From the NCBI GenBank assembly GCA_041393415.1, contig JAWKKE010000001.1, positions 327,608 through 391,607 on the forward strand: 64,000 bases of DNA. The letters are read 5' to 3'. The position numbers and the translations under genes are program-made. The notes under the pieces were generated by a model. It did no database searches and had not been told where the DNA came from. It saw nothing but the letters and a program-made list of their open reading frames with translations. The DNA is from Thermoleophilia bacterium (GTDB lineage Bacteria; Actinomycetota; Thermoleophilia; UBA2241). Positions 634-16,600 of this stretch are shown one piece after another (position 1 is the first letter of the stretch; each line of letters starts with the position of its first letter).

Positions 634-1049
634 TACGTCCCCTCGTAGTCGATGATTTCCGTGCTCGAACTGGCCAAGTACCGGTCCTTCTCGGCCAGGA
701 CCTTCTGCTCTTCGGTCGCGTAGCTCTTGACCATGCCCTTCGTCAGGCCGTGAGTGCAGACGATGCGCTTCCCATCCCTGAAGCAGAAGATGCGAAGATG
801 CTTCGTCTTGAACTCGAACGCTCCACGCTTCTTGTGGATCGGCTTGAAGTGCTCGGCGTTCGTCGGCGGCCCGTGGTCAACAGTGAACCCGAAGCGAGCC
901 CACATCTTTTGACTCTCGGCATCGTCAACGCTCTCGAGAAACTGGGCCACCTGACAGCCGCCGCGATCGTCCATTACAGCAAGAACCGGCCACTCTCCAT
1001 TACCCAGTCGACAAAGACGGTAGTTAACATTAGCGTTAACCGCGCTCAT
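633..1049 (-). CDS. Type II toxin, RelE/ParE superfamily, Gp49/HigB-like (DUF891-like)
   Basis: 138-aa ORF with KHLRIFCFRDGKRIVCTHGLTKG, typical of Gp49-like killer proteins. Stop overlaps the antitoxin start (ATGA at 633). Confidence 0.55.
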   Translation of the reverse strand: MSAVNANVNYRLCRLGNGEWPVLAVMDDRGGCQVAQFLESVDDAESQKMWARFGFTVDHGPPTNAEHFKPIHKKRGAFEFKTKHLRIFCFRDGKRIVCTHGLTKGMVKSYATEEQKVLAEKDRYLASSSTEIIDYEGT

Positions 1050-1475
1050 CCTCCCCTAGACGGAGCCGAGTGTCAATCCGGTCTGGCCGTTGGCGGACCC
1101 GTCGGCATGGTATCACTCGACTCGAGATCTGACGCGGCCGACACCTTGAGACCACGGGGCACTGCCCATCCAGTCGGGCGAGCAGTGCTCCGGACCGCCA
1201 TGCGTCGCAACCCCTCCTGTTCGCGTCGTGCATGGAGGATGCAAGGGCCTGACACCGGTGCTGGGCAGGGCCGGCAGTTCTCACTCCCAGGGATCGCCCG
1301 GTCCCTCACTCGCCGAAGAGGCAGCCCCAGGAATAGCATTGGAGCGCCTTTGAAGATCGCCACGGCCTTGCCAGCATCGCCCACAGCTGGACGAGAAGCA
1401 TGGCGACGGAGATTCGACCCGACGACGCGTCGGTCGAGCAATCGCGTAGCCAAGCGCAGGTGGAGGGACCAGCGG

Positions 1476-3257
1476 ATGTCATTCCAGACCCCGATCACGA
1501 TCCACAAGGCGCTGCAGGGCATAACAGCGCACGAATACGTCTTGCCGGCAATCCAGCGGGAGTTCGTCTGGAAGCCCGACCAGATATGCGCCTTCTTCGA
1601 TAGCCTCATGCGCCGCTATCCAATCGGGTCGTTCTTGTTCTGGGAAATCCCGGCGAACGACCTCGGTGACTACGTCTTCTACGACTTCATCCGCAACTAT
1701 CATGAACGGCGCGCGGCCAATTGCGCGATCGTGCCCAAAGACGCGTTGCCGACCGGAAAGCCAGCGACCGCCATCCTCGACGGCCAGCAGCGCATGACGG
1801 CGCTCAACGTAGGGCTGCGCGGCAGTCACGCTAAGCGGCTCCCGCGCAAGTGGTGGAACAACCCGGACGCGTTTCCGAAGAAGAAGCTCTACCTGAACAT
1901 CGCTGGGCCGGCGAGCGACAATGACGACAAGCTCATGTACGACTTCCGTTTTCTCACGAAGGAAGAGGCTGTCGACGGCAAGGTCGATGGTGCGCACTGG
2001 TTCCCCGTCCCGAAGATCCGTGACCTCACCGACGGCACCGACAGCGTTGGCATCTTCAAGTACATCCAGAAGGCCGGCCTGGCGGCCGAGAATGAGTTCG
2101 CGTTTCAGACGCTGGACCGTCTACGTCAGCTGGTCTTTCAGGATGCTGCGATCAGCTACTACGCCGTCGATGAACGCGAGCTGGACAACGTCCTCGACAT
2201 CTTCATTCGCGTGAACAGCGGCGGCACGGTGCTGTCGTATTCCGACTTGCTTCTCAGCATCGCCACAGCCCAGTGGTCCGAGCGCGATGCGCGCCAAGAC
2301 ATCAATGACCTAGTCGAGAAGATCAATGCGACAGGTCAAGGATTCGGCTTCACAAAGGACGTCGTGCTCAAGGCCGGCCTGGTCCTCAGCGACATCGGCG
2401 ACATCAGGTTCAAGGTCACCAACTTCAATCAGCAGAACATGCAACGGCTGGAGCAGGACTGGGACGCGATCTCGGCCGGCTTGACCTTGGGCACCAAGCT
2501 GCTCGCCTCATTCGGCTTCAGCGAGCGCACGCTCGGCGCGGACTATGTACTCTTGCCGCTCGCCTACTACGTGAAGATGCGGGGGTTCGACGAGACGTAT
2601 GTCACCTCGGATTCCTGGCGTGACGATCGTGAGAAGGTCCGCGGGTGGGTGCTGCGCTCGCTTCTGAAGGCGGGCATCTGGGGTTCTGGGCAGGACAGCC
2701 TCTTGGGCCGGCTGCGCGATGCCATCAAGAAGAACGGCCAGTCCGGGTTCCCCAGCGAACAGATCGAGACGGCCTTGGCGCCAATTGGCAAGAGCCTCAA
2801 GTTCGGCGCCGAGGAGATCGACGACTTGCTGGACCTCCAGTACGGAAAGCCGAGAACCTTCGTCACGCTCGCGCTGCTCTATCCCAAGTTCAGCTTCGAG
2901 ACCGAGCTGCACGTCGATCATGTGTTTCCGCAGAAGCTCTTCTACAAGAAGGCTCTGGGGCAGGCCGGCGTCGCAGCCGACGCACGAGAGGACTACATCG
3001 CCCTTATGAATGGGCTGCCCAATCTCCAGCTGCTGCCCGGCGCCGTGAACATCAAGAAGCAGGGAACGCTGCCCAGGAAGTGGATCGACGGCCTCGCCGT
3101 CGGGTCAGACCAGGCTCAGGCGAAAGCGGCGCGTGAGTCCTACCTGGCGACGCACGATCTGCACGGCGTACCCGACGGCATGCTTGGGTTCCCTGAGTTC
3201 TACGAGGCGCGCAAGAAGCGCATGCGCGAACGACTCGAGATGCTGCTCGGCGTCTAG
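1476..3257 (+). CDS. DUF262/DUF1524 (GmrSD / BrxU / SspE-like) putative type IV modification-dependent restriction endonuclease
   Basis: ATG at 1476 with GGAGGGA 6 nt upstream. The 750..1475 part of the track ORF is antisense artefact. N-terminal DUF262 hallmarks: IHKALQGI, QREFVW, AILDGQQRMTAL (DGQQR motif). C-terminal DUF1524-like ELHVDHVFPQ (His-Me finger). Confidence 0.8.
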   Translation: MSFQTPITIHKALQGITAHEYVLPAIQREFVWKPDQICAFFDSLMRRYPIGSFLFWEIPANDLGDYVFYDFIRNYHERRAANCAIVPKDALPTGKPATAILDGQQRMTALNVGLRGSHAKRLPRKWWNNPDAFPKKKLYLNIAGPASDNDDKLMYDFRFLTKEEAVDGKVDGAHWFPVPKIRDLTDGTDSVGIFKYIQKAGLAAENEFAFQTLDRLRQLVFQDAAISYYAVDERELDNVLDIFIRVNSGGTVLSYSDLLLSIATAQWSERDARQDINDLVEKINATGQGFGFTKDVVLKAGLVLSDIGDIRFKVTNFNQQNMQRLEQDWDAISAGLTLGTKLLASFGFSERTLGADYVLLPLAYYVKMRGFDETYVTSDSWRDDREKVRGWVLRSLLKAGIWGSGQDSLLGRLRDAIKKNGQSGFPSEQIETALAPIGKSLKFGAEEIDDLLDLQYGKPRTFVTLALLYPKFSFETELHVDHVFPQKLFYKKALGQAGVAADAREDYIALMNGLPNLQLLPGAVNIKKQGTLPRKWIDGLAVGSDQAQAKAARESYLATHDLHGVPDGMLGFPEFYEARKKRMRERLEMLLGV

Positions 3258-3285
3258 TTTCCAATCTCTGTCTTGCGGGGGTCGC

Positions 3286-3771
3286 ATGGATGACTACTAC
3301 GAGGGGGTCGTCATCGAATACCTGCGTGCCGACCCAACAATGTTCGTCAGGCCGCAATGCTGCATCCAACTGCACCCAGGCTCGCTCAAGGCATGCGATG
3401 AGCACTGGTACTGCGATGCCGTGGCTGTTCGCTTCCGCGAGCCAATCACGGTCTTTCTGTGCAAAGTCACGTTCGCGAAGACCCCTGTAGCCCTCTTCAA
3501 TCGCCTTCGCGCCTGGCGTGAGCACTGGCCAGACGTCTGCGCCGCTCTGGCGAGCGAAAACGGCCTCGCGGAGGCGTGGCCTGTGCAGCCATGGGTGTTC
3601 GTGCGCGGTGACCGGAGGGCGTTCGTGGCACGGAAGCTTGACGAGATCCTCCACCCGCTAGGCGGACCAGGTCAGATGCCAGAGCCGCTAATTACCGGCC
3701 TTGAAGATGTGACGCCGTGGCGGTACAAGCTGCCGCTCCTGCTTCCCACCGCGAGCGACGGAAAGCAGTAA
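3286..3771 (+). CDS. Hypothetical protein (161 aa), translationally coupled to the next gene
   Basis: ATG 3286 in the same frame as track ORF 3133..3771. Stop TAA overlaps the next ATG (TAATG at 3769-3773). No recognisable domain; Cys/His-containing (CCIQLHPGSLKACDEHWYCD). Confidence 0.5.
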   Translation: MDDYYEGVVIEYLRADPTMFVRPQCCIQLHPGSLKACDEHWYCDAVAVRFREPITVFLCKVTFAKTPVALFNRLRAWREHWPDVCAALASENGLAEAWPVQPWVFVRGDRRAFVARKLDEILHPLGGPGQMPEPLITGLEDVTPWRYKLPLLLPTASDGKQ

Positions 3772-4976
3772 TGCCAGTCAGCCTACTCATCGGCCTTGAT
3801 GTGGGCTGGAGTGAAAGACGACGCACCTGCGGAGTTGCGGTACAGGGAGCTCGGCTTGAGGTGGCCGGCGCCGTGACCTACGGCGACGTCTGCGCGATTG
3901 CATTGTTCAAGCGAGACGTCGTGCGAGTGCTCACCCCTGTTGTGGAAAGAGCACTGTGTGATGGACGACGAGTCCTGGTTGTGGCGGACGCGATTGTTGG
4001 ACCTCACCCAATCCCGTCTTCTGTACGTCGCGTCGACACTGAATGTTCGAGAGCCGGCTTCTTCGGCCGCGCTCAGTCGTATCCGGCGACCCAGAACACC
4101 GGGCAGCTGCTGTCAATGACCCTGCACGAGATACTCGACGACCTCAGCGCCGGTGTGAACACCTGCTGGATCCCGTGGATAGGCGATGGCGCTCTGCCCT
4201 CCCAGGGACTGATCGTGATGGAGACAAATCCGACGACCTCCATGGCAGTGGCGTTCTCGATGGCCGATCATGGGTCGCTGCCGACACGGTCCGCCCCCCG
4301 GCGGCTCTCGGACGGCACTCTGGTACGCGCGAAGTCGGACTGGTACTGGCGGTCTGGAGCAGGAGAACTTTGCGCAGAGATGCTCGCGACGCCCGCCGTC
4401 CGCAACGAGTACGATCACGAGCGAGTCGCTGGCCTCTGGTGCCTGGCGCTTGCGCGTGAGGTTGAGGCGTCAGGTGGAGCGGCGCTCATCGGGGACGAGC
4501 ATGGCGCCTACCTTGTGGGCAGCGTGGACCCATCATGGGTCGCGGACGTTCAGCGGGTCGGCATCCGCTGGGGCGAAATCCAGCTCGTCCCGCGCAGTCT
4601 TGCCGCTCCAGACTCGACGCCAAAGCACCTCGTGCCCGTGCCTGCCCTCCACACCCCCCTCCCCGCAATGTCTGCCTTAACTGGCGAGGGTCCGGACGAT
4701 GATGCGCTTCGCGGCGATATGGTTCGTGTCCACTTCACGGACGTCGGTGGCCTAACTCGGAAAGCCAATGGCTGGCTCGACACGGTCGACATGCCCTGCA
4801 GACTTCGTCTCCGAGGCAAGACGACACTCGACGTCACGGTGACGCCATTTGCTCCACCGAACCACCGCAGCCAGTTCAGAGTGATTCCCTCAATCGGACA
4901 GGTGCTGCGCGCATGGGGCGGTCCTAAGACGCTCAGCATCAGCGAGGACTTGCTGGTGCTCGGGCAAGTGCTCTGA
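3771..4976 (+). CDS. Hypothetical protein with RNase-H-like (DUF429 / YqgF / RuvC-like) N-terminus, 402 aa
   Basis: Starts MPVSLLIGLDVGWSERRRTCGVAV (hhhGhDhG motif of RNase-H-fold nucleases). A later IVMETNPTTSMAV resembles the ExxP motif of DUF429. C-terminal ~150 aa have no match. ATG overlaps the stop of the upstream gene. Confidence 0.45.
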   Translation: MPVSLLIGLDVGWSERRRTCGVAVQGARLEVAGAVTYGDVCAIALFKRDVVRVLTPVVERALCDGRRVLVVADAIVGPHPIPSSVRRVDTECSRAGFFGRAQSYPATQNTGQLLSMTLHEILDDLSAGVNTCWIPWIGDGALPSQGLIVMETNPTTSMAVAFSMADHGSLPTRSAPRRLSDGTLVRAKSDWYWRSGAGELCAEMLATPAVRNEYDHERVAGLWCLALAREVEASGGAALIGDEHGAYLVGSVDPSWVADVQRVGIRWGEIQLVPRSLAAPDSTPKHLVPVPALHTPLPAMSALTGEGPDDDALRGDMVRVHFTDVGGLTRKANGWLDTVDMPCRLRLRGKTTLDVTVTPFAPPNHRSQFRVIPSIGQVLRAWGGPKTLSISEDLLVLGQVL

Positions 4977-5040: not shown

Positions 5041-7080
5041 CTAGCCCTCGAGCGACTTCAGAACCACCCGATCGAGATCGGCATAGAAGCCGATGTCCAG
5101 CTTGCCCACGACATCCTCGGGCAGGGCCGAGAACTGAGCCTTGTTAGCTATGGGCACGAGCACGTTGATCGCGCCGTTCCCGGCCGCGACCTGCAAAGGC
5201 TCCAGGATCGACTGTGCGGCCCGGATGTTCCCCTGGATAGTCAGGTCGCCCATCACGACAGTCCCACCTCGAACCCTCTTGCCACGGAGCGCGGAGACCA
5301 GTGCGACGTAGAACGCGACGCCGCAAGGGCATGCGACCTTGCTGCCGTTGAGGTCGACCGCCTCGGCGGAGACGTTCTGTGCATGAAGGGCTTGCGCCAA
5401 CCCGATGCGATCCTTGACGGAGTCGAGGTAGGTCATCGCCCGATTCAGGGACTCCTTGATCTCCTTGTCCAGGCCCGTCGGAGTCAGCGCCTTGCCGGTG
5501 CCCGGCGACGTCGTAACCTCGATGCGGTATAGCCCCACCCGGGCCTCGGCATCGGAGGCAAGCGTGTAGACAGTGCCAGGGGCCATCGGGTCCTGCGAGA
5601 TCTGAAGCCCGCCGCCCTGCTCGGGGACCCCAACGATGATTTCGTGGTCATCATCTATGTCGTAGTAGCTGAACGTCGTCTTGAAGAACTCGAACGAGCC
5701 GCGCTTCTTGAGCTGCTCCTTGACGCGCCGCCTGCCCTCGAGCGCGAGCTCGAGGTACTCGACGAGCTCCTCCTTTGTGTAGTCGCCATCGGGGTGCAGC
5801 AGCTTCAGATATCCCGACACCGTCTTCTTGACGGCGGTAGCATCGCGACCCTCCACATTGGAACCGAGGCGGAACTGCTTCTCTACGACGTCGAAGAGGT
5901 TCTGCTTCCGCAGCGTGCGGAACGCCTCGGCGAGGTAGTCAGTGACGAACCCGTACCTCTTCGTCTGGATGTCGCGCGAGATCTTGGGCACTTCCCAGCC
6001 CGGAAGGTAGAAGTGGAAGCGGTCCATGACGGCCAGGTCGAACTCCGCCGGTAGCGACTGGAAGAGGTCGGTCGTGCCACCGGCCACTAGCGCCTCGACA
6101 GACTGATTCAGGTTACCGAGAAAGACCAAGGATGCATCAGCAAGTACCTGGGTGACACCGCGACTGAAGCGCCCGTTGGCCATGTAGTCCTTCATGATCT
6201 GGATCGTGTCGGGGTCGTTGACCTTCATTCCACCGACCTCGTCGAAGGCGACGACGTCCCAGTGGCCGACCAGTCCAACGACGCGCCGCGCGTTGTTGTA
6301 GAAGAGGTTCGCGGAGCTCGCCTTGCCTCCCGAGATGAGGATGCAGTACGGCGACATCTCGCTGAATGCATAGGACTTGCCTGTGGCGCGCGGTCCAAGC
6401 TCGATGAAGTTGTAGTTCTTCTCGACGAAGCCGATCAGGCGCGAGAGCAGGAGCAGCTTCAGCCGGTGATCGAATCGTTGCGGCTCGAGTCCGATGCTGC
6501 GCACGAGGGCATCGATCCATTCGTCTGTCGTGAACTCCCGACGACCGTCGCAGTACTCCTCGAAGTCAAAGCGCGCGAGTTGAATCGGCTTGAGCTCAGC
6601 GATGTGGAAGGGACTGCCCTTCGTACCCTCTTCGGCAGGCTGAAACTCGACATCGACTAGAGCCCAAATACCGCCTTCGAGCAGTCGGTCGTAGCGACGA
6701 TAGAACTTGTCGGTGATGTGGATCTTGTTGAAGCCGAAGTTGTCGAGCGAGGCCCAGTACTTGTTCTCGCTGGGCAGGTACCGCACTTCAACTCGGTCGA
6801 TGAAGCGATGCGTACCCTGTTGCTCCACCATCGCCTGGGCCTTGTTGGCCTCGTCATGTCGGAAGAAGTTCTTGGAGAGCGTGTCTTTGACGGCCTGAAT
6901 GCCGACTCTGATCTCATCCGGATCGTCAGACGCGCAGTACCGCCCCAGAAGGTACTCGAGGACGTACGAGGGCACATTGGCGCCACCCTTGAGCTGATGA
7001 AGAAGGTCCTTACGCACGACCTTGCCGGCAAACACACTGCCAAGCTTGGCATCGAGCTCATCACGTGTGACTGGTTGCAC
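5041..7080 (-). CDS. brxL: BREX system Lon protease-like protein BrxL
   Basis: 679 aa. N-terminus MQPVTRDELDAKLGSVFAGKVVRKDLLHQLKGGANVPSYVLEYLLGRYCASDD, then ELGPRATGKS, WDVVAFDEVGG, TVSGYLKLLHPDGDY and C-terminal Lon-protease-like domain. Collinear with BrxL. Confidence 0.9.
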   Translation of the reverse strand: MQPVTRDELDAKLGSVFAGKVVRKDLLHQLKGGANVPSYVLEYLLGRYCASDDPDEIRVGIQAVKDTLSKNFFRHDEANKAQAMVEQQGTHRFIDRVEVRYLPSENKYWASLDNFGFNKIHITDKFYRRYDRLLEGGIWALVDVEFQPAEEGTKGSPFHIAELKPIQLARFDFEEYCDGRREFTTDEWIDALVRSIGLEPQRFDHRLKLLLLSRLIGFVEKNYNFIELGPRATGKSYAFSEMSPYCILISGGKASSANLFYNNARRVVGLVGHWDVVAFDEVGGMKVNDPDTIQIMKDYMANGRFSRGVTQVLADASLVFLGNLNQSVEALVAGGTTDLFQSLPAEFDLAVMDRFHFYLPGWEVPKISRDIQTKRYGFVTDYLAEAFRTLRKQNLFDVVEKQFRLGSNVEGRDATAVKKTVSGYLKLLHPDGDYTKEELVEYLELALEGRRRVKEQLKKRGSFEFFKTTFSYYDIDDDHEIIVGVPEQGGGLQISQDPMAPGTVYTLASDAEARVGLYRIEVTTSPGTGKALTPTGLDKEIKESLNRAMTYLDSVKDRIGLAQALHAQNVSAEAVDLNGSKVACPCGVAFYVALVSALRGKRVRGGTVVMGDLTIQGNIRAAQSILEPLQVAAGNGAINVLVPIANKAQFSALPEDVVGKLDIGFYADLDRVVLKSLEG

Positions 7081-7092
7081 CTGGATCTCCCG

Positions 7093-9624
7093 TCAGTCGA
7101 GCATCGCGTTCTTGAGAGACAACTTCGCGAACAGTAGTCCTGTAACAGGATCGACGACCCGCACTTCAATCTTGTCGCCTGAGAATCCTTCGCTGATGAG
7201 AATCGGAACCTGCGTCTCCGCTCCACTACGCAGCGTTACGAGCCCGGAGGTGGCGTCGCGAGCATCGCAGTCGGCAGCCTCGCCAACGACCGCTGCCTTC
7301 TGGCCGGCGCCGTCGTAAGCTTCGACCCACACCTGCCGACTGTCGGCAAGCATGGCGTTGAACCAGACCTTCACACCAACGACGCGGCTCGTGAACTTGT
7401 CGGCCTTGTAGGCCAGACGAACCTCGCCCTCGCCGGAATCAGCAGCCCGGCCACTGGCGTCCAGCACCACCACCGGCAGCACACACTCCTGCAGGGAGAT
7501 GCCCTCGTGGAAGTAGCCGCCGCCGGCCGAAAACACCTTTAGACCGGTCGGCACCACGAGCTCCGGCGCCGGCCCGTCGATTCCGAGATCCCGCGCCTTC
7601 ATGACCAGCGACCCCGGACTTGAGCCGTGACAGCTGCCCAAGCGACAGCGACGCTTCTCAAGCAGCCACTCACCTTGCGGAGCAGCAACCACGTCACCGG
7701 GGGGGATCTCTGGGAGCAGCACGTGGCCGTGATCTGCAGCGAATACGAAGTGCTCGAAGCCCAGGGCCACGAGCGCGTCGGTCGCCTTGCGCAGGTGGGT
7801 CAACACCTTGCTCATGAACTCGCGCGCCATCAGAAGGTTCGTGCCTTCACCAAACGCATCGATGTCCTGCGAGCGCACGACGAGAAGATCAGTGCTGCCA
7901 TACTTGGCGTTCAGCTGGACACTCCGGGACGACAACAGCTCCGACAGCGTGATCTCCTTGAACCGATCTCCAAGAGTCACTTTTAGAAGCGCCATGCGAT
8001 CCGAGGAGGCAGGTAGGGATCTCTCGCCGATGTTGGGCACTAGCTCGTCGCCCTTCTTCTCCAGCCGAAGAGCCCCATCGGCTCCTGGCATGAGGGCCGC
8101 CATGCCGACCGGAGTCGTCGTCGGCAGAGACGCCGCCGCCGGCGTCAGCTCGACGCGCCCCAACGGAGCGAGTCCTTCGACAAGGTCCCGCGCCAGTTCG
8201 TAGCGCAATGCGTCCACGAGGAAGTAGACGACGCGGGTACGCTCCGTCAGAGCCGGGGCCACGTGCCTTTCGTAAGTCTGAGTCGCACGCGCGAATCCGT
8301 CCGCCGGCCAACCATCGGCCTTCACGGCGCCGAGGAACTGCTCTTGAAGCGCCTCAGCCTGCTTCCGATAGGTCGCACGACAGCGGTCGACCACGCCGTC
8401 GAGCACCTCAGCATCGGGGCACTCAGCGTAGCCCTGCTCGAAGAGGCGCTGGTGACGATCGAGGCGCCAGAGTCCGTCGTCGGCGCTATACGCTTCGATC
8501 CATTCGTGAACGGCAGTGCCCTTCTGAGGCAACGTGTGTTGTAGACCGGAGGCGTACTCCGCGAAAGCCACGCACCGCTCGAGCGCCCGCCAACGAAGAC
8601 CCTGCTCCACCACCGAAGTCCAGACTGACTGACGCCTTGACTCAACCAGGGCGCGCGCTCGATCCTGAGCGTTGTCCAGGAGGAAGGTTGCGGCTGATCT
8701 CAGGGCAGCGTCATTCTGGAATCCAAAGGTGTCCTCTGACCAGGTGCACGACCCCGTGTCAACCAACGATTGGAGATTGAGCTCCCTGGCCACTCGGTCC
8801 GCCAGATCCATGTAGTGCTCGCGCAGTGAGGCATCGTTGCGCATCCGCTCGCAAACCGCAGAGACGCGGTCCCCGCAGACATCCGGTGCGACCGGAATCG
8901 ACGTGAGCGAATCCGAGAGCGAACGGCCGACACACGCGGCTAGTTCGGATACGAGCACGAAGCGCCCGAGAGGCGGCAGCAAATCGTCCACTGCCATCTG
9001 CCCATCTGGCGCCTCGAAGCCAAGCTCAGTCTGAAGCAGCCGCAGGAGCTCATCGCGCGCGCCCGGTACGAGCTCTATGCGCTCGGCAAATTCGTCATCG
9101 CACAGGAGCTTCGACACGATCTCCACGACCGACTCGGTCCCGCACGCCGTGCCGAGGGCTGCATAGCCAGTCGACTGCTCAAGCGCGTCCAACATCCTGA
9201 TTGCCGGCATGCCCTTCGCAAAGTAACCATCAATCTCGCTCGCAGCGTCAGGCATCGCCTGGCGGGCGAGAGACTGCAGTCGCTCCGACTCCTGGTCTCC
9301 AAATGCCGTGCCAACGACTGCGAAGCCTTCGAACAGGTCCTGGACCCGTTCCTTCTCATCGGTGAACCGACTCATAGGAACGTAGATAAGCAGACTTGGA
9401 GCAGCTCCCGTGCTCCCCTCGGCGACGCTGAGACGCTCAAATGCATCTTCAGCATCTCTGCGAGCCCTCAGCCGTGATTCCGTAGCCGTGATTCGGGTGC
9501 AATCTGGGATGTCTAGACTATCGAATACCTCCTCGAACGCACCCTCTCCGTCGTACCAGACGACCACTCGGTACTGCTCGAGATACTCTCGCATCCGATC
9601 CTGGACGAAGCTCGATACCTTCAC
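7093..9624 (-). CDS. pglZ: BREX alkaline-phosphatase-superfamily protein PglZ
   Basis: 843 aa. N-terminus RVVVWYDGEGAFEEVFD and PglZ-domain VVYFLVDALRYELARDL. Lies between pglX and brxL as in type 1 BREX. ATGA overlap with upstream pglX-C stop. Confidence 0.85.
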   Translation of the reverse strand: MKVSSFVQDRMREYLEQYRVVVWYDGEGAFEEVFDSLDIPDCTRITATESRLRARRDAEDAFERLSVAEGSTGAAPSLLIYVPMSRFTDEKERVQDLFEGFAVVGTAFGDQESERLQSLARQAMPDAASEIDGYFAKGMPAIRMLDALEQSTGYAALGTACGTESVVEIVSKLLCDDEFAERIELVPGARDELLRLLQTELGFEAPDGQMAVDDLLPPLGRFVLVSELAACVGRSLSDSLTSIPVAPDVCGDRVSAVCERMRNDASLREHYMDLADRVARELNLQSLVDTGSCTWSEDTFGFQNDAALRSAATFLLDNAQDRARALVESRRQSVWTSVVEQGLRWRALERCVAFAEYASGLQHTLPQKGTAVHEWIEAYSADDGLWRLDRHQRLFEQGYAECPDAEVLDGVVDRCRATYRKQAEALQEQFLGAVKADGWPADGFARATQTYERHVAPALTERTRVVYFLVDALRYELARDLVEGLAPLGRVELTPAAASLPTTTPVGMAALMPGADGALRLEKKGDELVPNIGERSLPASSDRMALLKVTLGDRFKEITLSELLSSRSVQLNAKYGSTDLLVVRSQDIDAFGEGTNLLMAREFMSKVLTHLRKATDALVALGFEHFVFAADHGHVLLPEIPPGDVVAAPQGEWLLEKRRCRLGSCHGSSPGSLVMKARDLGIDGPAPELVVPTGLKVFSAGGGYFHEGISLQECVLPVVVLDASGRAADSGEGEVRLAYKADKFTSRVVGVKVWFNAMLADSRQVWVEAYDGAGQKAAVVGEAADCDARDATSGLVTLRSGAETQVPILISEGFSGDKIEVRVVDPVTGLLFAKLSLKNAMLD

Positions 9625-11648
9625 TCCGCAGTCCCCTCCTCCACCCCATGCGCGATCGCGATCGAGCGGTCACGCCGGCAGGCTTCCAGCACACGCTCGG
9701 GCCAGACGGCGTAGGCCAGATGCGCCCAGTCGGAGTCACCGCGCTCGAGCTTCTTCCAGCAAGCTTCGAGGTCCTTGCGCCATTTGGTCAGGCGGAAGAG
9801 CCGAGCCAGCGGCGAGGCGCAGATCAGCACGCCGTCATCGAGATCGGGCTTGTAGGGCAGCGCGGCGACGCGCAGCAGCTCCTCGCGCAGCTCGGCGAAC
9901 TCGCCCTGCAGTGTGGTGAGCTCCTCGTGTTCCTTGCGCAGCTCGCCGGCCTGCTTGCCCGTCGCTGTCGGCAGCGCGACGGCAATCTCGTTCAAGCGCC
10001 GCTGGACCTCGCTGGCCTTGGGCTCGACGTAGCGATTGACGGCCGTGTAGAGCAGGTCATCGTTCAAGCGGTGGTAGTAGAGCCAGAGGGTGTAGGAGCC
10101 GGAAGTCGTGGAGAGCGGCCAGTAGATCGGCGCCTGGCGGCGGCTCTTGGAGTACCGCCTGAGGTGCTCGGCGAAGAACCCTGAGGGCTTGGCGAAGAAG
10201 TCGCGGAGGGTCTTCGCGCCGAGTAGCGCGCAAGCTTCGTGCTCGATCTCCTCGGCTTGAGGGCCGAAGAGCAACGCCAGCACCTCGCGCACGCGGGCGA
10301 CGATGTCTTCCTGGTGAGGGCGCCCGCTATTATCGCGGCCAGGGTCGTCCACCAGCACGCCGTCCCACGAGACGCGCAGCGGGTAGCCGGCGGGCTCTTC
10401 GCCCAGTGGAAGACCGTCGTCACCGGTCAGCATCCCGGGCGAGCAGGCCGGCAGCGGCGCGAAGGGGTCAGGCAGCCCCGGCGCTGCGAACTCGCCAGTC
10501 GCGTAGCGCACGTCGAAGCGGCCGACGGCGACGCCGACGCAGTAGGCGAGCAGGTCGACGACAAGGGTGCGGGCATCGACCGTCGTCTCTGCGACTTCTT
10601 CCTCATCTGCCTCGGCCTCGGCGCCAGGCTCGCCAATTGACTCGAGGATTGCCCTGCGGTCTTCCTCCTGCAGACTGTAGAGATCGAAGACGATGTCGTC
10701 GATCTGCCGCCGGAGGTTCTCGAGCTCGCGGTCGCACGCGTCAAGGCGAGTTCGCCAGGCTGTGGCGCGGGCGATGAGGGTGGGGGCACCGATCTGGAGG
10801 AGGGCTGGAAGGTGGAAGGCGTGTGAGGTCTCGACTGCGGAGTCGCGCTCAAACATGAGCTTCCAGCCGCGCCGGGCGAGAGGGCCAAGGCGTTGATCGG
10901 CAAGTGCGGGGCATGGGGCCCCGTTGACGTAGTTGTACGCCTTGTGCTGAGCACACACCTCATTGAGCCAGGCCGCGACAGGTGCCGAGTTCAAGAGGCC
11001 GAGAAGGGGCCAGGCGTCTCGTTCATCATCCCAGAAGATGGCAGTTCCCTCGAAAGAGAAGACATGCCCTTCCGGCATCACCTGCACCGAGAAGTGATTC
11101 GTGCGCTTCCCGTAACAGAATCCGGCCTTGAAGTAATGGTCTTCTGACTGGATCTTGAATCCGTAATTGCCGTTCAGATAGGGGTACCGCTGGTTCACGT
11201 CCGCCTTCGCTTCACATCCGTCATCGGCCCAGAGAAAGACGTGGTCCGTCGACTTGTAGAACGGGGCGTACTTGGACCCATGTGCCATCGGCTTCCATCG
11301 CTGGCTCGCGCCGGTTGAGTTCGGCCGAACCTCCCACACCAGCCTGTGGAACCTTGTCGATGCGCCTATGCCTTGGTGAGCAGTGACTCCATGGCTCGAT
11401 AGGGTAGAACCACGCCTTGCCAGCTCCAGCACTGGTCCCGGAACCCGAAACGCAAACGGGGAGCCCTCGATGGCTGCAAACCGCTCAATCCGCTGTAGGG
11501 TCGTCGTCCGGAGAGCGGCGCCCTCGGTCAGGCAGAGGATGGCGCTGGCCAAAGAGTCTTCCTTCTGCCCAATGCGGAACAGGTCAATGAAAGGAGTCAC
11601 CATGAGGCTACTCTTTGTGAACGGGCGTGAAGGTCTGGAGAGCGTCAT
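9621..11648 (-). CDS. pglX: BREX PglX, C-terminal segment (675 aa) as a separate ORF
   Basis: ATG 11648..11646 overlaps the stop of the N-terminal PglX ORF (ATGA). No MTase motifs in this half. Size and position match the C-terminal (target-recognition-like) half of ~1200-aa PglX proteins. Confidence 0.7.
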   Translation of the reverse strand: MTLSRPSRPFTKSSLMVTPFIDLFRIGQKEDSLASAILCLTEGAALRTTTLQRIERFAAIEGSPFAFRVPGPVLELARRGSTLSSHGVTAHQGIGASTRFHRLVWEVRPNSTGASQRWKPMAHGSKYAPFYKSTDHVFLWADDGCEAKADVNQRYPYLNGNYGFKIQSEDHYFKAGFCYGKRTNHFSVQVMPEGHVFSFEGTAIFWDDERDAWPLLGLLNSAPVAAWLNEVCAQHKAYNYVNGAPCPALADQRLGPLARRGWKLMFERDSAVETSHAFHLPALLQIGAPTLIARATAWRTRLDACDRELENLRRQIDDIVFDLYSLQEEDRRAILESIGEPGAEAEADEEEVAETTVDARTLVVDLLAYCVGVAVGRFDVRYATGEFAAPGLPDPFAPLPACSPGMLTGDDGLPLGEEPAGYPLRVSWDGVLVDDPGRDNSGRPHQEDIVARVREVLALLFGPQAEEIEHEACALLGAKTLRDFFAKPSGFFAEHLRRYSKSRRQAPIYWPLSTTSGSYTLWLYYHRLNDDLLYTAVNRYVEPKASEVQRRLNEIAVALPTATGKQAGELRKEHEELTTLQGEFAELREELLRVAALPYKPDLDDGVLICASPLARLFRLTKWRKDLEACWKKLERGDSDWAHLAYAVWPERVLEACRRDRSIAIAHGVEEGTAE

Positions 11649-13675
11649 GGCACTCTCCGTTCGAGGCAGTATGCGGCGGTCTCAACGTTGGCGTCGAGAA
11701 CGCCGTAGCCAAGATCGGCGAATACGCCAATCTCGGTCTCTCTCAACAGGATCTCCTCGCGCCACTTCTGGAAGGACGACAGGAAGAACCCCGTTCGCGA
11801 TGTGATAGCGCCAAGACGACCACGAGGAACGAGCATTTCGAGCCCCCTTTCAACAAAAGCCGCATAGAGGTCGTTCTTAGTGCGCAGATAGGTCTTGTCG
11901 ACGTATGCCTTCGAACCCTTCGCCGGCTCGCCGAACGGGGGATTCATCAGGACGACGTCAAACCGCTGACGGCAGAGGTCCACGAAAGCGAGGCCCTGGC
12001 CCGCATCGTCGCTGAAGAGTCGGCGCCGCATTCCGGACTCCACTTCGACCTGCGCAGCGTATGCCCTAAGGCCGTCGAGGATCCTGGTCTCCGCCGTGGC
12101 CCAGAACTGATCATCGGTGATTCCAGAGACGTCGAAAAGCTCGGGTTGACGAGCAGAGGGCATCTCTAGCTCGGGCGCCAGTACCATCTGCTTCTGCGCG
12201 TTCGCCGCTGCCCACTGATCTCTTGCCGTATCTATCAGTCTGCAGAGCTGTTCTTCCGCCTTGAGTAGGACACCGAGCTCTCCGGCCGGCCTAAGCAGAT
12301 CGGCAAATGCAACCGTCAGCTGTCGCAGAGCCTCGGGTTGCAGCGTGTGAGTGAAATCTGTCAGCAGCCGCGCATCGCCCGGCATGGGCTCCGCGCAGAC
12401 CACGTTTGTCTTCGTGATGGGCTGGAGCTCCACGTCTGCGTCCCGACCGAATCTCTGTGCACGCAGCCAAAGCGCGAGTGCAGCCACTTGAGCCGTCCGC
12501 GGATCGATGTCTACACCATAGAGGTTGCGCTCGATGACGAGACGAGGAATCGCCGAGCGCAAAGCTCCCAGCTCTGGGTAGTCGTCCCGCAGTGTCGCCC
12601 CTGTAGCCGCGCTGGAAGGCGAAGACTCGTCTTCCCACGCCTCCTCGTAGATTGAAGCAAGGACGTCGAACGCATAGAGCAGGAAGTGGCCCGAACCACA
12701 CGCAGGGTCGACGACCTGGAAGTCCCGAGGGTCCCTCTTGTCGCGCCACGAGATGTAGGCGGGGAGCTGCAGAAGATCCTCGCGGCTCAGGTCGATCCCG
12801 TCTGCTTCGTCGTCCGGCACAGGCTCGCCCAGAGTGAGGAAGACCTCTGTCGGACGATGGACTAGGTATCTACATTCCTCGGCAAGCCTCGTGCTGCCCT
12901 GGCGCATCTCGTACCAGATTCGACCGAGCGTGTTGTCCACCAAGAACTCCACCACATACCGCGGCGTGAAGAACTGATTTCGCACGGCAAGTTCACGCGA
13001 GTTCCGAGGCGCCGATGCAGCCTTGCGCATCGCTTTGCGCTCGTCATCTGAGTTGAAGTACTGGAAGACCCAGCCGATAGTCTCATCCTCGTCCCAGACG
13101 TCCGAGAGGTCCTCGCTGGTAAGCTCCGCGAGTACCTCTTGCAGACACGTCTCGTCGGGGAAGACGACGGACTGCGGCGCATCCGGGTCGAAAAGCACGC
13201 CGAGCTCAACTGCGAGCTCACGGAACACGGCCGTCAGGAAGCTGCGATAGGCGGCAGTGCGACCCCCAAGCGCCCCACCCGAGAGCTGCTCGAAGAGACG
13301 AAATCCCTCCGACTCCAGGCCACGCCTCACGCACTCCACCATGTAATCGCGCTCTTCGCACATGCGCAGCGCGACGAGTCGGTTGAGCGTCGTGAAGGAC
13401 GTCTCATAGGCCATCCGCGCAAACGCCAAGGCAAGACGATTTTGATCCGAGCCGGATTCCAGAGTCGCCAGATGGTCCTGCCACTGGCGGAGAATCTCGG
13501 CTCTCCGAAGGCCGCGTTCGTCGAGATGCTGCAGCTGGTCCATGTCGAGACGGTCGCCATCGGGCTGCAGACCATACTCCTGCTGCATCCTCCTCTCGAC
13601 GCTGGCGACGAGGAGGTCACGACTACGACCAACGGCTCGAGCCAGGATGTTTCGGGTGCCGGTGTCGAGAGCCAT
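11645..13675 (-). CDS. pglX: BREX N6-adenine DNA methyltransferase PglX, N-terminal methyltransferase segment (676 aa)
   Basis: AdoMet-binding motif I VVDPACGSGHFLLYAFD and catalytic motif IV LMNPPFGE. Follows brxC with a 6-nt gap. Confidence 0.85.
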   Translation of the reverse strand: MALDTGTRNILARAVGRSRDLLVASVERRMQQEYGLQPDGDRLDMDQLQHLDERGLRRAEILRQWQDHLATLESGSDQNRLALAFARMAYETSFTTLNRLVALRMCEERDYMVECVRRGLESEGFRLFEQLSGGALGGRTAAYRSFLTAVFRELAVELGVLFDPDAPQSVVFPDETCLQEVLAELTSEDLSDVWDEDETIGWVFQYFNSDDERKAMRKAASAPRNSRELAVRNQFFTPRYVVEFLVDNTLGRIWYEMRQGSTRLAEECRYLVHRPTEVFLTLGEPVPDDEADGIDLSREDLLQLPAYISWRDKRDPRDFQVVDPACGSGHFLLYAFDVLASIYEEAWEDESSPSSAATGATLRDDYPELGALRSAIPRLVIERNLYGVDIDPRTAQVAALALWLRAQRFGRDADVELQPITKTNVVCAEPMPGDARLLTDFTHTLQPEALRQLTVAFADLLRPAGELGVLLKAEEQLCRLIDTARDQWAAANAQKQMVLAPELEMPSARQPELFDVSGITDDQFWATAETRILDGLRAYAAQVEVESGMRRRLFSDDAGQGLAFVDLCRQRFDVVLMNPPFGEPAKGSKAYVDKTYLRTKNDLYAAFVERGLEMLVPRGRLGAITSRTGFFLSSFQKWREEILLRETEIGVFADLGYGVLDANVETAAYCLERRVP

Positions 13676-13681
13676 GAGCTG

Positions 13682-16600
13682 CTAGCTCCACGTGATTCTG
13701 ATCGACTTGCCGGCCTTGATGACGGCGTCGAATCGCGCGCGGAGGGCGTCAAGCCATTCCTTCAGGTCTTCAGCATTCTCAATCAGGCCCGGAGGCGCGA
13801 GCGTCGATGCAGCAACCAGTTCCTGAGAATCAGTCGGAGGAAGTTCGGCGGGCGCTTCAACCTGCACTGCCCGCATTGCCGCGTCTCTTTCGGCGAGCAA
13901 CTGAACGCCCGCGACGAGCAGGCGCTGGAGATCCTCGCATTCGTGTCCGTCGCGCGCCTTGGGAGGCAGGCCGCTCGCACCAACACTGGCGGCAATGGCC
14001 TCCCGTTCCGATTCGGAGAGACGCGTCCAGTCTGGCACAGCCTGCACTGCCGCCAGCGCACGTTCGACGCCCGCCAAGTACTCCGTCAAAGCCGACTCGT
14101 ACTGCCTGGCGAGCGACTTGACGATGCTAACCACGCCGTTGCGGATCTGCGGGAGTCGTTCATGGAATGCATTGGACGTCAAGTCATCTTCGAGCGTCAC
14201 AAGCGTGTCCTCGCTGACCGATTCCTTGAGCTGAGCCCCGAAAAGCACCTGAAGTGAACGCACCTCAGAGACCAGGGACCTGGCCCGAACCAGGTCAGCC
14301 TCGGCACCACCGTCAAAGGTCTTCTCCAAAGCCCGCGCCCATTTGGTGTCAGCAAGAAGACTCGACTGTTCGGCAGCGAGGATCGATACCTTACCCACCT
14401 CGTCCTGCTGTAGGAGACTCGTCAGGGTGTCCACAACGGCCCTGGCCCGCTCTTCTCCCGGAAGGCCCAGCAAGCGTAGGCGCTCCGGAAGATTCGCGAG
14501 ATCGTCGACCAACAGACTGACATGCTCCTTGACGGCCTTCGCAATCGAATCCTCGAGCGGCATGACCTTGATGCCGAACATGTCCCGCAATCGCTCTGCG
14601 GCGTGCGAGAGATCCTCGAATGAGACGGGCGTCTCGCGTCGTGACACCCCAAGCCGGTTGAACGCGACAGCCGACTTGACGGCATCGCGGGCCGCCGGTC
14701 CGGCGCCGCGAATCACACCGTCTGGCCCGTGGAACTCAACCTCCTTGCCGACCAGCAGTGCCGCGAAAAGGTACCGCGTCGCATCCTTCGACCACCCATA
14801 GGGAGCCGCAGCAAACATGTCCTGAATCGCACTCCCCTGTAGGCGACCCGCACTGCCGGCCTCTTCGAGCCGCTGATCAAGTGCCCGAAGAGTCTCAGCC
14901 AAAGCATCGCAGTCGGTATCGACCCGAGGAGAGCTGCCCTTCGTGAGCACCAGACCTAGCGGATCCAGCTCCTTGGTCATCTTCGCGAGCTCTTCGACTC
15001 CGAGGAACTTGGCAGCCAAGTCAGTCTGGGGCCGAATCGGCACGAGAGTGAAGCTCTTGAAGAGGTCTCCGGCCGCTTCGCCCAGGAGCTTCTTGGACGC
15101 AGCAAGAAGGGTCTCACCCGCTTCAGATACGGGGGTCGAACGGCCTCGAAAGACGAAGGTCCCTTCCAGCAGGGCCCGCTCGAGCAGGGCGCGCACTCTC
15201 CTCCGCGCCGCGTCTGACGCTTGACGCTCGGCGCGAAGGAACTGCGCGACGTCGCGGTCGGTTTCACTCTCTCGCGTAACGCTCAGCACCCAGTCGGACC
15301 GACACGCTCGGATGAGTTCGTCCTCAAGTTCCTCCGGCGTCGATACGAGCCAGACGATCTGATCCCTAAGCTCGGGGGAGGTGTTCGTCTCAACGAGGAG
15401 TTCTTTGCGGCGAACCTCCACGCTTCGCGCATCCACCATGTGGATCCTGAAGTCGACATCGGCACCGTCGCCGACGATGCGGACCTTCTCGAAGCGAACG
15501 CCGCCTTTGACTTCCTTCACGTTCTGAAGCCGGACCGACGGAGTCGGGTCGAAGACGCCCTCGAGTACCTTGTTGCGCAGCAGGCTGACCTCACCACCAG
15601 TCGGGATGTGTTCGTCGCGCTTCTTGATCAACGGACGGACACCGGCGCTGAGGAACAGGAAGCCGCCGGCTTGTGGATCGTCCACCACGCCACACTCTGA
15701 GTCCGCAGCCAGCCTACCGAGCGCGGCGCGCACTTCGTCAACGAGCGAAGGTGCCCCTAGTTCGGGACACAGAAGGGCCGCGATGTTCTCCGGAGTCCGC
15801 GGGAAATCCTCAAGTGCCTGGAGCGCCCCGATTGCTTTGGCAACACGCACGACGAACGCATCAGTAGCGAACGCCTTCTCCACGCGATCGACGCCCTCCG
15901 CGACAAACGGGAGCACCTTCTCGATGTCTCCACGAAGGGTGTTGTAGATGTCATCGATACAGGCGAGCGACCCTATCGGCCGGTCGGCTATCGGAATGGC
16001 GCCCGGCGGAAGCAGCCTACTCGCGTCCACAAGAAGGTCCTGAATAACCCGGATTGCAGAGCGCAGGCCTATGCCGCCGGTCGACCGAGCAAGGCTCCTG
16101 ATGAGCTCCAACAGCAGGTCGAAATGCTGCGGAAGGAACGGATACAGATGAGCAAAGGTGTCGGCATCGGGATCGCCCCTGAAGAGACGGGTGCCCGTCA
16201 GCCGTGTGTGCGTCGCGAGTGCCTGGCCGTGGCGAGAGAACAAATCCTTCAGGTCGGCCTCCGCTTGGTCGGACTTGGCCAGCAAGCGCCGATACGTGAT
16301 CTCCTTGATGTCTTGGGCTTCGAGATTGATGGCAATTGGGAAGCGGTCCTTGAGCTTGCTCAACTCGGCGGAGTTCAGCGCCGCCTTCTCGACGATTTCG
16401 GTGAGGGTCTGCTGACCCGTACACGCGATCCAGACCCTGCCCCGACCAAGCTCCTTGAAGTTCCGAGCCAGTCCGTCAAGGTTGAGAATCAGCTGGTTGC
16501 GGGGCGCAACATACTGGCCAGCCTCATCAACCAGGAAGAGGACGTTCTCCTTCCCTGACTTGCGACGGGCAAGTTCGATCATGCGCTCTGCAAGGCCGCG

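What the first reader, a model, noticed from the sequence alone, without database searches (positions are those of the whole stretch)
1476..4976. GmrSD/BrxU-like type IV restriction gene followed by two translationally coupled unknown genes, one RNase-H-like: candidate undescribed three-gene module
The DUF262/DUF1524 protein carries the DGQQR hallmark and a C-terminal His-Me-finger HxxH...P motif, so it looks like a complete GmrSD-family modification-dependent nuclease. Two further genes follow with a 28-nt gap and a TAATG overlap: a 161-aa Cys/His-containing unknown and a 402-aa protein whose N-terminus LLIGLDVGWS plus METNPTTS resembles the RuvC/YqgF/DUF429 RNase-H-fold catalytic signature. 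GmrSD-like enzymes normally act alone (BrxU, SspE, Eco94GmrSD). A coupled operon with an extra predicted nuclease is not an arrangement I can place in any described system. The operon is convergent with brxL, which echoes the known BrxU-next-to-BREX association.
Basis: partly seen in the sequence, partly recalled or inferred. Interest (0 to 1): 0.7.

Follow-up and report, generated by a model that had tools for sequence, protein, structure and literature searches.

The report
BrxU restriction operon with extra nucleases
Next to a BREX phage-defence system sits an ordinary BrxU-type enzyme that cuts modified DNA, followed in one operon by two undescribed predicted nuclease genes that recur behind BrxU in other uncultured bacteria, but as optional add-ons rather than a fixed three-part machine.

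Summary
The three genes are real and lie at the stated coordinates: A 1476-3257, B 3286-3771 and C 3771-4976.

- **A** is a full-length orthologue of BrxU (PDB 7p9k, E 6.6e-159; PADLOC HEC-05). It is a known stand-alone GmrSD type IV restriction enzyme, here convergent with a complete type 1 BREX.
- **B** (161 aa) has a confident PD-(D/E)xK restriction-endonuclease fold.
- **C** (401 aa) has a RuvC-like RNase H fold, linked transitively to Pfam DUF429, plus a separate C-terminal domain.

Neither B nor C matches any Pfam, NCBIfam, PADLOC or PHROG model.

In related metagenome contigs the order is always BrxU, B, C, ankyrin protein. The B-to-ankyrin junctions are start/stop overlaps. Each of B, C and the ankyrin gene can be missing. 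B-C-ankyrin also follows other lead genes. Most B homologues and the distant C homologues stand alone.

So this is a recurrent but variable operon, not an obligate triad. The window lacks the ankyrin gene. Its B copy alone, among 128 homologues, carries Lys in place of the putative catalytic Glu.

The best reading is BrxU plus co-expressed, facultative auxiliary nucleases of unknown role. It is a new variant of a known kind, of moderate interest.

The parts
1303..1475 (+). Upstream leader and probable promoter region of the A-B-C operon. It ends with a GGAGGG ribosome-binding site 9 nt before the ATG.
   Evidence: Nucleotide synteny with the related contig L102 starts at window 1303 and runs through A-B-C at 85% identity. 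The sequence was read. No sigma-70 consensus was found, which is uninformative for this high-GC organism.
1476..3257 (+). Gene A: a BrxU orthologue. It is a GmrSD-family type IV (modification-dependent) restriction enzyme with an N-terminal DUF262 NTPase/sensor domain, a helical linker and a C-terminal DUF1524 His-Me finger nuclease.
   Evidence: PADLOC HEC-05 model PDLC04151, E 9.5e-208, full length. phmmer against the PDB hits 7p9k (BrxU), E 6.6e-159, residues 3-588 aligned to 2-575. Pfam GmrSD_N E 3.2e-27. The DGQQR, AFFDS, HVDHVFP and NLPNLQLL motifs are aligned with those of BrxU. HEC-05 equals BrxU according to Payne et al. 2024.
3258..3285 (+). The 28-nt A-B spacer, carrying a G-rich Shine-Dalgarno sequence (gcggggg). 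No convincing terminator lies here.
   Evidence: Sequence read. In relatives the spacer is 22-25 nt and carries GGAGG. Terminator-like hits in the region are no more frequent than in shuffled sequence.
3286..3771 (+). Gene B: a 161-aa single-domain protein with a PD-(D/E)xK (restriction-endonuclease-like) fold, from an undescribed family. This copy has Lys (AAA, 3463-3465) where 127 of 128 homologues have the putative catalytic Glu.
3771..4976 (+). Gene C: a 401-aa protein, translationally coupled to B by a TAATG overlap. It has three parts: a RuvC-like / DUF429-related RNase H-fold domain (about aa 1-285), a disordered linker (288-312), and a beta-rich C-terminal domain (about 315-401) with an NDNGG...NPWL motif.
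5041..18718 (-). Context: a complete type 1 BREX system, convergent with the operon. Genes are brxL 5041-7080, pglZ 7093-9624, pglX in two ORFs (9621-11648 and 11645-13675), brxC 13682-17317, brxB 17314-17940 and brxA 17867-18718.
   Evidence: Pfam hits to BrxL_ATPase/BrxL_N/Lon_C, PglZ, Eco57I/MmeI_Mtase, BrxB and BrxA. brxC is assigned by size and position, with only a weak DUF6079 hit. The block is 90.6% identical in nucleotides to L102.

Best explanation
The locus is a BrxU-led defence operon.

**Gene A.** A is an intact BrxU-type GmrSD enzyme. By family knowledge it binds NTP through its DUF262/DGQQR domain. It then cleaves DNA carrying modified cytosines with its His-Me finger. It does not need partners for this, and it complements the neighbouring BREX, which targets unmodified DNA.

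**Genes B and C.** They are co-transcribed behind A and translationally coupled to each other. Both are predicted metal-dependent DNases from two undescribed families:
- B has a minimal PD-(D/E)xK core.
- C has a RuvC/DUF429-type RNase H-fold endonuclease domain. Its putative active site is D10, E151 and H216/E217. A flexible linker joins this domain to a portable C-terminal domain that probably docks it to a partner or substrate.

**Their role.** B and C are facultative add-ons of a recurrent, variable operon ordered BrxU, B, C, ankyrin protein. They are not obligate subunits of BrxU. Most likely they are auxiliary effectors that are co-regulated with BrxU but functionally separable. They would add a second layer of DNA attack, or back up BrxU when phages inhibit it.

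**This copy.** The ankyrin gene is absent here. B carries E60K, so B is probably catalytically impaired or acts only structurally.

**Shown versus inferred.**
- Shown: gene structures, folds, family links, operon architectures and purifying selection.
- Inferred: all enzymatic activities, the defence role of B and C, and their independence from BrxU.
For: **A is BrxU with all motifs.** BrxU/HEC-05 works as a single gene and is a frequent BREX partner.

**Folds.** B. C.

**Operon architecture**:
- The gene order is the same in every locus.
- The A|B gap is 22-28 nt with a GGAGG ribosome-binding site.
- The B|C, C|Ank, B|Ank and A|C junctions are all ATGA or GTGA overlaps.

**Each part is optional:**
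- A-B-C: window, L102, L017
- A-B-C-Ank: L099
- A-B-Ank: L105/L019, L018
- A-C-Ank: L001
- X286-B-C-Ank: L097
- TAC-like pair, then B-C: L002
- C alone: L107, L100, L103, L104, L003-L016
- B alone: 77 loci with unrelated neighbours

**Neighbours are defence genes:** HEC-01, SIR2-HerA, DruE-like helicase, AbiE, KAP NTPase, Mrr, TIR, HEPN.

**Other support:**
- All four genes are under purifying selection, dN/dS 0.12-0.43.
- B and C are absent from the plasmid, phage and viral-contig collections.
- The E60K substitution is unique among 128 B homologues.
Against: - No experiment exists for B or C, and no homologue of either has been characterised.
- The strictly conserved gene order and the translational coupling would also fit a true multi-subunit system with optional subunits.
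- Sampling started from B and C, not from BrxU. I therefore could not measure what fraction of this BrxU clade carries them.
- The B family lacks the canonical Lys of the (D/E)xK motif (it reads E-x-T/S), so even the family's nuclease activity is not assured.
- Physical interactions between A, B and C were not modelled.
- E60K could be a consensus error in the assembled genome.
Confidence: 0.5

Rival explanations
1. Obligate or semi-obligate multi-component type IV system. B, C and (elsewhere) the ankyrin protein would be accessory subunits of this BrxU clade. They might process BrxU-cut DNA, or sense or neutralise phage inhibitors such as IPI*-like proteins. This would resemble TgvA, which is required alongside the GmrSD protein TgvB.
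For: - The gene order is fixed and the junctions are tight or overlapping in every architecture.
- A is directly followed by B in 6 of 7 distinct A-containing loci, and by C in the seventh.
- The A-B-C plus BREX block is conserved between two genomes.
- TgvAB shows that GmrSD enzymes can need a partner.
- Repeat proteins (TPR_15) are enriched next to GmrSD genes (Machnicka 2015).
- A mosaic, fast-diverging patch lies inside B, between otherwise near-identical contigs. That is the pattern expected for a surface involved in an arms race.
Against: - Each of B, C and Ank is dispensable in some locus.
- B-C-Ank follows the unrelated lead gene X286, and B-C follows a TAC-like pair.
- Most B homologues and the distant C homologues have no GmrSD neighbour: 0 of 30 upstream neighbours scanned.
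- A keeps every BrxU motif, and BrxU is self-sufficient.
- The window's B has lost its conserved Glu.
Confidence: 0.27
2. B-C (with or without Ank) is a self-contained new nuclease defence system. It happens to be inserted downstream of BrxU and is mechanistically unrelated to it. B and C would form a heteromeric nuclease. The small PD-(D/E)xK subunit would supply a second cleavage site, as the small subunit of R.BspD6I does for its nickase.
For: - The B|C junction is a start/stop overlap in all 7 distinct loci that have both genes.
- B-C occurs without A in L097 and L002.
- All contexts are defence islands.
Against: - B and C also occur without each other inside the same close clade: A-B-Ank, A-C-Ank, and C alone at 61% identity in L107.
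- The wider B and C families do not co-occur at all.
- The window's B lacks the conserved Glu.
Confidence: 0.15
3. B and C are not defence genes. They would be DNA repair or recombination enzymes, or remnants of a mobile element. Possible models are a TnsA/TnsB-like pair (PD-(D/E)xK plus RNase H fold) or an IS110-like RuvC-fold recombinase.
For: - RuvC-fold and PD-(D/E)xK proteins include resolvases and transposases.
- One C homologue lies next to IS66 genes (L104).
Against: - No transposase, IS110 or TnsA/B model matches.
- The families are low-copy: 1-8 contigs per cluster in the C-query and B-query lists.
- The genes hold fixed operon positions with overlapping stop and start codons.
- They are absent from plasmid and phage collections.
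- Genomic context varies between close relatives, unlike housekeeping repair genes.
- The C family is tiny: 234 representatives among 1.84 billion.
Confidence: 0.08

Closest known systems
BrxU (Escherichia fergusonii pEFER; PDB 7p9k/7p9m; the same as PADLOC HEC-05)
   Same: Gene A aligns over its full length (E 6.6e-159) and keeps the DGQQR, xxFDS, DH(V/I)(F/Y)P and NLPNLQLL motifs. Like BrxU, it sits beside a type 1 BREX.
   Different: BrxU in pEFER is embedded between pglX and pglZ, is co-oriented with BREX, and has no dedicated downstream genes. Here the gene is outside BREX, convergent with brxL, and heads its own operon with B and C.
TgvAB (Vibrio cholerae VPI-2), a two-protein GmrSD-family type IV system
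   Same: It is a GmrSD nuclease encoded in an operon with a second gene, and it sits inside or next to another restriction system. It sets the precedent that GmrSD enzymes may need or use partners (PMC11411939).
   Different: TgvA is itself a DUF262 protein and is required for function. B and C have unrelated nuclease folds, and comparative genomics shows them to be optional.
Pfam DUF429 (PF04250), in the RuvC/YqgF clade D of the RNase H-like superfamily (Majorek et al. 2014)
   Same: C's N-terminal domain has the RuvC-like fold. It has acidic residues at the ends of strand 1 (D10) and strand 4 (E151), and an H-E pair at the start of the C-terminal helix. Its weakest profile relatives are bona fide DUF429 members.
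   Different: C itself gives no DUF429 hit at E<=1. It carries large insertions and an extra C-terminal domain. DUF429 proteins are mostly single-domain, sit in conserved non-mobile contexts, and have no known function.
Isolated PD-(D/E)xK cleavage modules: FokI cleavage domain, N.BspD6I and the R.BspD6I small subunit, Can2/Card1 nuclease domains, Upx C-terminal domain
   Different: Sequence identity is only 6-15%. The B family has E...D...E-x-T/S rather than (D/E)xK. It has no CARF or DNA-recognition domain, and it occurs mostly as a solo gene.
Defence genes 'embedded' in or appended to larger systems (Payne et al. 2024, 'guilt by embedding')
   Same: These are small, co-oriented, co-regulated nuclease genes riding with BREX, Hma or type I R-M loci. 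One relative, L099, carries HEC-01 directly upstream of the BrxU-B-C-Ank operon.
   Different: B and C are not among the HEC or PDC models of PADLOC v2. They ride on BrxU, which is itself an embedded-type gene.

Membership tests
GmrSD / BrxU type IV restriction enzymes (gene A) | N-terminal DUF262 (ParB/Srx-like) domain with the DGQQR nucleotide-hydrolysis motif | tested here: met
   Pfam GmrSD_N E 3.2e-27, above the cut-off. ILDGQQR aligns with BrxU VLDGQQR.
GmrSD / BrxU type IV restriction enzymes (gene A) | C-terminal DUF1524 His-Me finger (D/E-H-x-x-P ... N ... N/H) | tested here: met
   HVDHVFP, NLPNLQLL and N-I-K-K align column for column with BrxU HVDHIYP, NLPNLQLL and N-N-Q-K. The Pfam GmrSD_C hit alone is below the cut-off (16.6 against 23 bits).
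GmrSD / BrxU type IV restriction enzymes (gene A) | Full-length collinearity with a characterised member | tested here: met
   Residues 3-588 align with residues 2-575 of 7p9k, 533 bits. The PADLOC HEC-05 model is covered 20-593 of 600.
GmrSD / BrxU type IV restriction enzymes (gene A) | NTP-dependent cleavage of DNA that carries modified cytosine | not testable with these tools
   This is a biochemical property. It is inferred from orthology only.
PD-(D/E)xK nuclease superfamily (gene B) | Alpha-beta-beta-beta-alpha-beta core fold | tested here: met
PD-(D/E)xK nuclease superfamily (gene B) | Catalytic D ... (D/E)-x-K signature on strands 2 and 3 | tested here: not met
   The family has D44 (127 of 128) and E60 (127 of 128), followed by x-T/S instead of x-K. 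The window copy has K60 in place of E60. The fold fits the superfamily, but activity of this copy is doubtful.
RNase H-like superfamily, RuvC/YqgF/DUF429 clade (gene C) | RNase H-like fold with RuvC-type topology | tested here: met
RNase H-like superfamily, RuvC/YqgF/DUF429 clade (gene C) | Conserved acidic residues at the ends of strand 1 and strand 4 and in the C-terminal helix | tested here: met
   D10 (strand 5-10), E151 (strand 147-151) and H216/E217 (start of helix 216-232) are invariant in 24 sequences that go down to 26% identity. The 3-D geometry of the site was not measured.
Pfam DUF429 (PF04250) (gene C) | Match to the family HMM above the gathering score | tested here: not met
   C gives no hit at E<=1. 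The link is only transitive: the C-family profile hits P0195 (E 2.3e-14) and P0223 (E 5e-09), and these score 27.4 and 24.4 bits on DUF429, whose cut-off is 23.
RuvC Holliday-junction resolvase proper (gene C) | A protein of about 160-170 aa, detectable RuvC sequence family membership, and ruvAB context | tested here: not met
   Identity is 12% over 130 aligned residues. There is no Pfam or NCBIfam RuvC hit. C is 401 aa with insertions and an extra domain, and it sits in a defence-island context.
   Architectures lacking A, B or C exist within the close clade. The wider B and C families never co-occur with each other or with GmrSD in the loci examined.
Type 1 BREX (context) | [quoted passage not shown] | tested here: met
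   Pfam hits for BrxA, BrxB, PglX-type methyltransferase, PglZ and BrxL. brxC is assigned by position and size. pglX is split into two ORFs.

The most novel reading that the evidence does not exclude
BrxU, B, C and Ank form a new modular, multi-nuclease type IV defence. The appended cassette would be a PD-(D/E)xK protein, a DUF429/RuvC-like nuclease with a portable docking domain, and an ankyrin sensor. It would guard BrxU against phage inhibitors or carry out a second, modification-independent attack. This would define two new defence protein families and a new logic for type IV restriction: a core enzyme plus swappable ancillary nucleases, analogous to the ancillary nucleases of type III CRISPR.
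Probability: 0.25. Interest if true: 0.7.

Novelty: new variant of a known kind. Interest (0 to 1): 0.5.

Why it matters
BrxU and GmrSD enzymes are treated as single-protein systems. BREX plus GmrSD is one of the commonest defence pairings.

A lineage in which BrxU heads a conserved-order, translationally coupled operon of optional nuclease-fold and ankyrin genes points to one of two things:
- type IV enzymes can recruit ancillary effectors, or
- BrxU operons are landing pads for new single-gene defences.

Either way, two protein families with confident nuclease folds and no entry in Pfam, NCBIfam or PADLOC become concrete candidates for testing. B has at least 711 clusters. C has about 234 representatives in 1.84 billion proteins.

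The domain-swap evidence for C's C-terminal domain, and the mosaic patch in B, mark the parts likely to determine specificity.

Tried and rejected
1. **Curated libraries.** Direct family assignment of B and C with Pfam, PADLOC, NCBIfam and PHROGs gave no hits at E<=1 or 0.1. Profile searches of PDB sequences found nothing meaningful.
3. **Conserved partners for solo B or C.** All-against-all clustering of neighbouring ORFs gave only antisense or alternative-frame shadow ORFs. Pfam scans of 30 upstream and 28 downstream neighbours of B showed no recurrent family.
4. **A hidden B-like gene upstream of distant C homologues.** The upstream ORFs are unrelated or spurious.
5. **Mobile-element origin.** There are no matches in plasmids, phages or IMG/VR and no transposase models. 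The TnsA/TnsB and IS110 analogies were rejected.
6. **Promoter and terminator scan, and folding of the C-brxL intergenic region.** Nothing exceeded shuffled sequence.
7. **Identity of three further proteins.** These were X286 (the alternative lead gene), the N-terminal half of the ankyrin protein, and the alternative N-domain fused to C's C-terminal domain. No hits were found.
8. **A degenerate A that needs helpers.** This idea was rejected because every BrxU motif is intact.


Full report
**Observation**

- A runs from 1476 to 3257 (593 aa).
- After a 28-nt spacer with a G-rich ribosome-binding site comes B, 3286-3771 (161 aa).
- C ends 64 nt from the stop of a convergent brxL.

The minus strand from 5041 to 18718 encodes a complete type 1 BREX: brxL, pglZ, pglX, brxC, brxB and brxA. 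Protein look-ups identify the source as a Thermoleophilia genome assembled from a metagenome (locus tags R2826_01485 and R2826_01490).

**Gene A is BrxU**

- A matches the PADLOC HEC-05 model over its full length (E 9.5e-208).
- It matches the crystal-structure sequence of E. fergusonii BrxU (7p9k) over residues 3-588 (E 6.6e-159).
- The DGQQR NTPase motif is in register with BrxU. So are the xxFDS motif and the His-Me finger elements HVDHVFP, NLPNLQLL and N..K.
- Payne et al. state that HEC-05 is BrxU and that it defends as a single gene.
- BREX plus GmrSD is a well-known pairing.

This part of the finding is already known biology.

**Gene B**

- B matches no model in Pfam, PADLOC, NCBIfam or PHROGs.
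- A 35-sequence alignment gave a confident model (pLDDT 89.8). Its topology is the classic alpha-beta-beta-beta-alpha-beta restriction-endonuclease core.
- The family conserves E11, D44 and E60, followed by T/S rather than Lys.
- Across 128 unique homologues, position 60 is Glu in 127. It is Lys only in this window (codon AAA at 3463-3465).
- The family is moderately large: at least 711 clusters at 90% identity. All members are single-domain proteins of about 160 aa, and none is named.

**Gene C**

- C also matches no curated model.
- The AlphaFold model is confident (pLDDT 87.8, pTM 0.86). It shows an N-terminal alpha/beta domain, a disordered linker at 288-312 and a small beta-rich C-terminal domain.
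- The invariant residues sit where RuvC-type catalytic residues sit: D10 at the end of strand 1, E151 at the end of a central strand, and H216/E217 at the start of a helix.
- An exhaustive profile search found only 234 representatives among 1.84 billion proteins. The weakest N-domain hits (P0195, P0223) pass the gathering score of Pfam DUF429.
- Majorek et al. place DUF429 in the RuvC/YqgF clade of RNase H-like endonucleases.
- C's C-terminal domain (motif NDNGG...NPWL) also occurs fused to a different, unannotated N-terminal domain of about 250 aa (P0197, P0201, P0208). It behaves as a portable module.

**Is there a three-gene module?**

I collected 108 related loci and mapped A, B, C and further genes onto them. 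Within the close clade (B at 64% identity or more, C at 51% or more) the architectures are:

| Architecture | Loci |
|---|---|
| A-B-C, convergent with brxL | window; L102 (syntenic over A-B-C and BREX, 85-91% nucleotide identity) |
| A-B-C, then contig end | L017 |
| A-B-C-Ank-DUF1848 | L099 |
| A-B-Ank | L105/L019, L018 |
| A-C-Ank | L001 |
| X286-B-C-Ank-DUF1848, X286 being an unrelated 286-aa protein | L097/L098 |
| ...B-C-Ank | L108 |
| MqsA-like HTH, SecB-like protein, B, C | L002 |
| C alone | L107 (61% identical), L100, L103, L104 |

- The order A, B, C, Ank is never violated.
- The A|B spacer is 22-28 nt with GGAGG.
- Every B|C, C|Ank, B|Ank and A|C junction is an ATGA or GTGA overlap; in the window it is TAATG.
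- All four genes are under purifying selection. dN/dS is 0.12-0.15 for A, 0.18-0.32 for B, 0.23-0.43 for C and 0.20-0.31 for Ank.
- Outside this clade the families part company. Twelve genomic C loci, from Planctomycetota and Myxococcota, have neither B nor A. Seventy-seven metagenomic B loci have neither C nor A.
- B's neighbours are heterogeneous defence-island and mobile genes: HerA, Mrr, SNase, TIR, DACNV, NA-iREase1, HEPN, HNH, integrase and transposases.
- The contexts of the close clade are also defence islands. They include HEC-01, SIR2-HerA, a DruE-like helicase, AbiE and a KAP NTPase.
- Neither B nor C occurs in plasmid, phage or IMG/VR collections.

**Interpretation**

The data show a recurrent, order-conserved but compositionally variable operon led by BrxU. 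The window holds a three-gene version that lacks the ankyrin gene and has a probably crippled B.

Several facts argue against an obligate complex:
- each appended gene can be absent;
- B-C-Ank can follow other lead genes;
- both families exist alone;
- BrxU is intact and is known to be autonomous.

I therefore favour facultative auxiliary effectors that are co-regulated with BrxU (confidence about 0.5). Accessory subunits or guards of BrxU come second (about 0.27). An autonomous B-C system comes third (about 0.15), and a non-defence role is unlikely (about 0.08).

Some evidence keeps the accessory reading alive:
- The gene order is invariant and the genes are translationally coupled.
- TgvAB is a precedent.
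- A mosaic patch lies inside B. L018 and L105 are about 99.6% identical through the 3' end of A. They then drop to 65-88% over about 360 nt of B and return to 93-97%.

Enzymatic activities are inferred from fold and residue conservation only.

**Novelty and score**

A is already known. B and C are undescribed families with confident nuclease folds. The BrxU-B-C-Ank operon is not in PADLOC v2, and I did not find it in the literature searched.

I rate it a new variant of a known kind, with interest 0.5. It is not astonishing to a specialist, because defence islands are full of unknown nucleases. It is, however, a clean and directly testable case of a single-protein type IV enzyme carrying a swappable nuclease cassette.

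Noticed in passing
window 3463-3465: Codon 60 of B is AAA (Lys). All 127 other unique homologues have Glu at this putative catalytic position. The closest relative (L102, 87% identical) has Glu. This is either an inactivating mutation or a consensus error in the assembled genome.
   Followed up: partly
window 9621-11648 and 11645-13675 (minus strand): The BREX methyltransferase pglX is encoded as two ORFs of 676 and 675 aa that overlap by 4 nt. The methyltransferase motifs are in the upstream piece, and the downstream piece has no Pfam hit. This is either a natural split or a frameshift.
   Followed up: no
window 136-1049 (minus strand): A Gp49/HigB-like toxin (633-1049) and a Cro/C1-type HTH antitoxin (136-633) share a 1-nt overlap immediately upstream of the BrxU operon. 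They are not conserved in the syntenic contig L102, whose synteny starts at window 1303.
   Followed up: partly
window 1-26000 versus 26000-31000: The BrxU-BREX region and the genes up to about 26 kb have a GC content of 0.59-0.67. The next 5 kb rises to 0.67-0.73. This is consistent with a horizontally acquired island. The region 18.7-26.2 kb holds several unannotated ORFs and a 1087-aa DEAD/ResIII helicase (22079-25342), possibly a further defence system.
   Followed up: no
L099 7268-8671; L097 8453-9850; L001 11236-12618; L105 1765-3141; L108 1437-2705: An ankyrin-repeat protein of 420-467 aa, with an unannotated N-terminal half of about 215 aa, is translationally coupled after C, or after B when C is missing. 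In L099 and L097 it is followed by a DUF1848 protein (PADLOC model RTasDUF1848). The window has none of these.
   Followed up: partly
L018 1-1218 versus L105 757-1980: A mosaic pattern is seen. The 3' end of A is about 99.6% identical. A stretch of about 360 nt inside B is only 65-88% identical. Identity then returns to 93-97% into the ankyrin gene. This suggests recombinational replacement or diversifying change localised to B.
   Followed up: partly
L097 7200-7240 and 8435-8475; L105 1747-1790: The B|C, C|Ank and B|Ank junctions share a near-identical motif, GGA(N)YCCCAATGA. This microhomology could mediate precise loss or gain of the C cassette.
   Followed up: no
proteins P0197, P0201, P0202, P0208: The C-terminal domain of C (VVLNDNGGLNxxANPWL...) is fused in these proteins to a different conserved N-terminal domain with the motifs FCDPDNGV, VVYHH and RGSSRVFFVL. 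That domain has no Pfam, PADLOC, NCBIfam or PDB match, so it is an uncharacterised sister architecture.
   Followed up: partly
L003, L007, L009, L011, L013, L103 (solo C loci, mostly Planctomycetota): Solo C genes repeatedly lie near small nucleotide-metabolism-type genes. These include MazG-like PRA-PH, a HAD/5'-nucleotidase-like protein, cpYpsA (SLOG) and NADAR. DUF2779 nuclease genes are near C in L002, L006 and L100.
   Followed up: no
L097 5845-6705 and L001 1365-2214: An unannotated 286-aa protein (X286) takes the place of BrxU in front of B-C-Ank in L097. It also occurs elsewhere in the L001 island. It has no hits in any library.
   Followed up: partly
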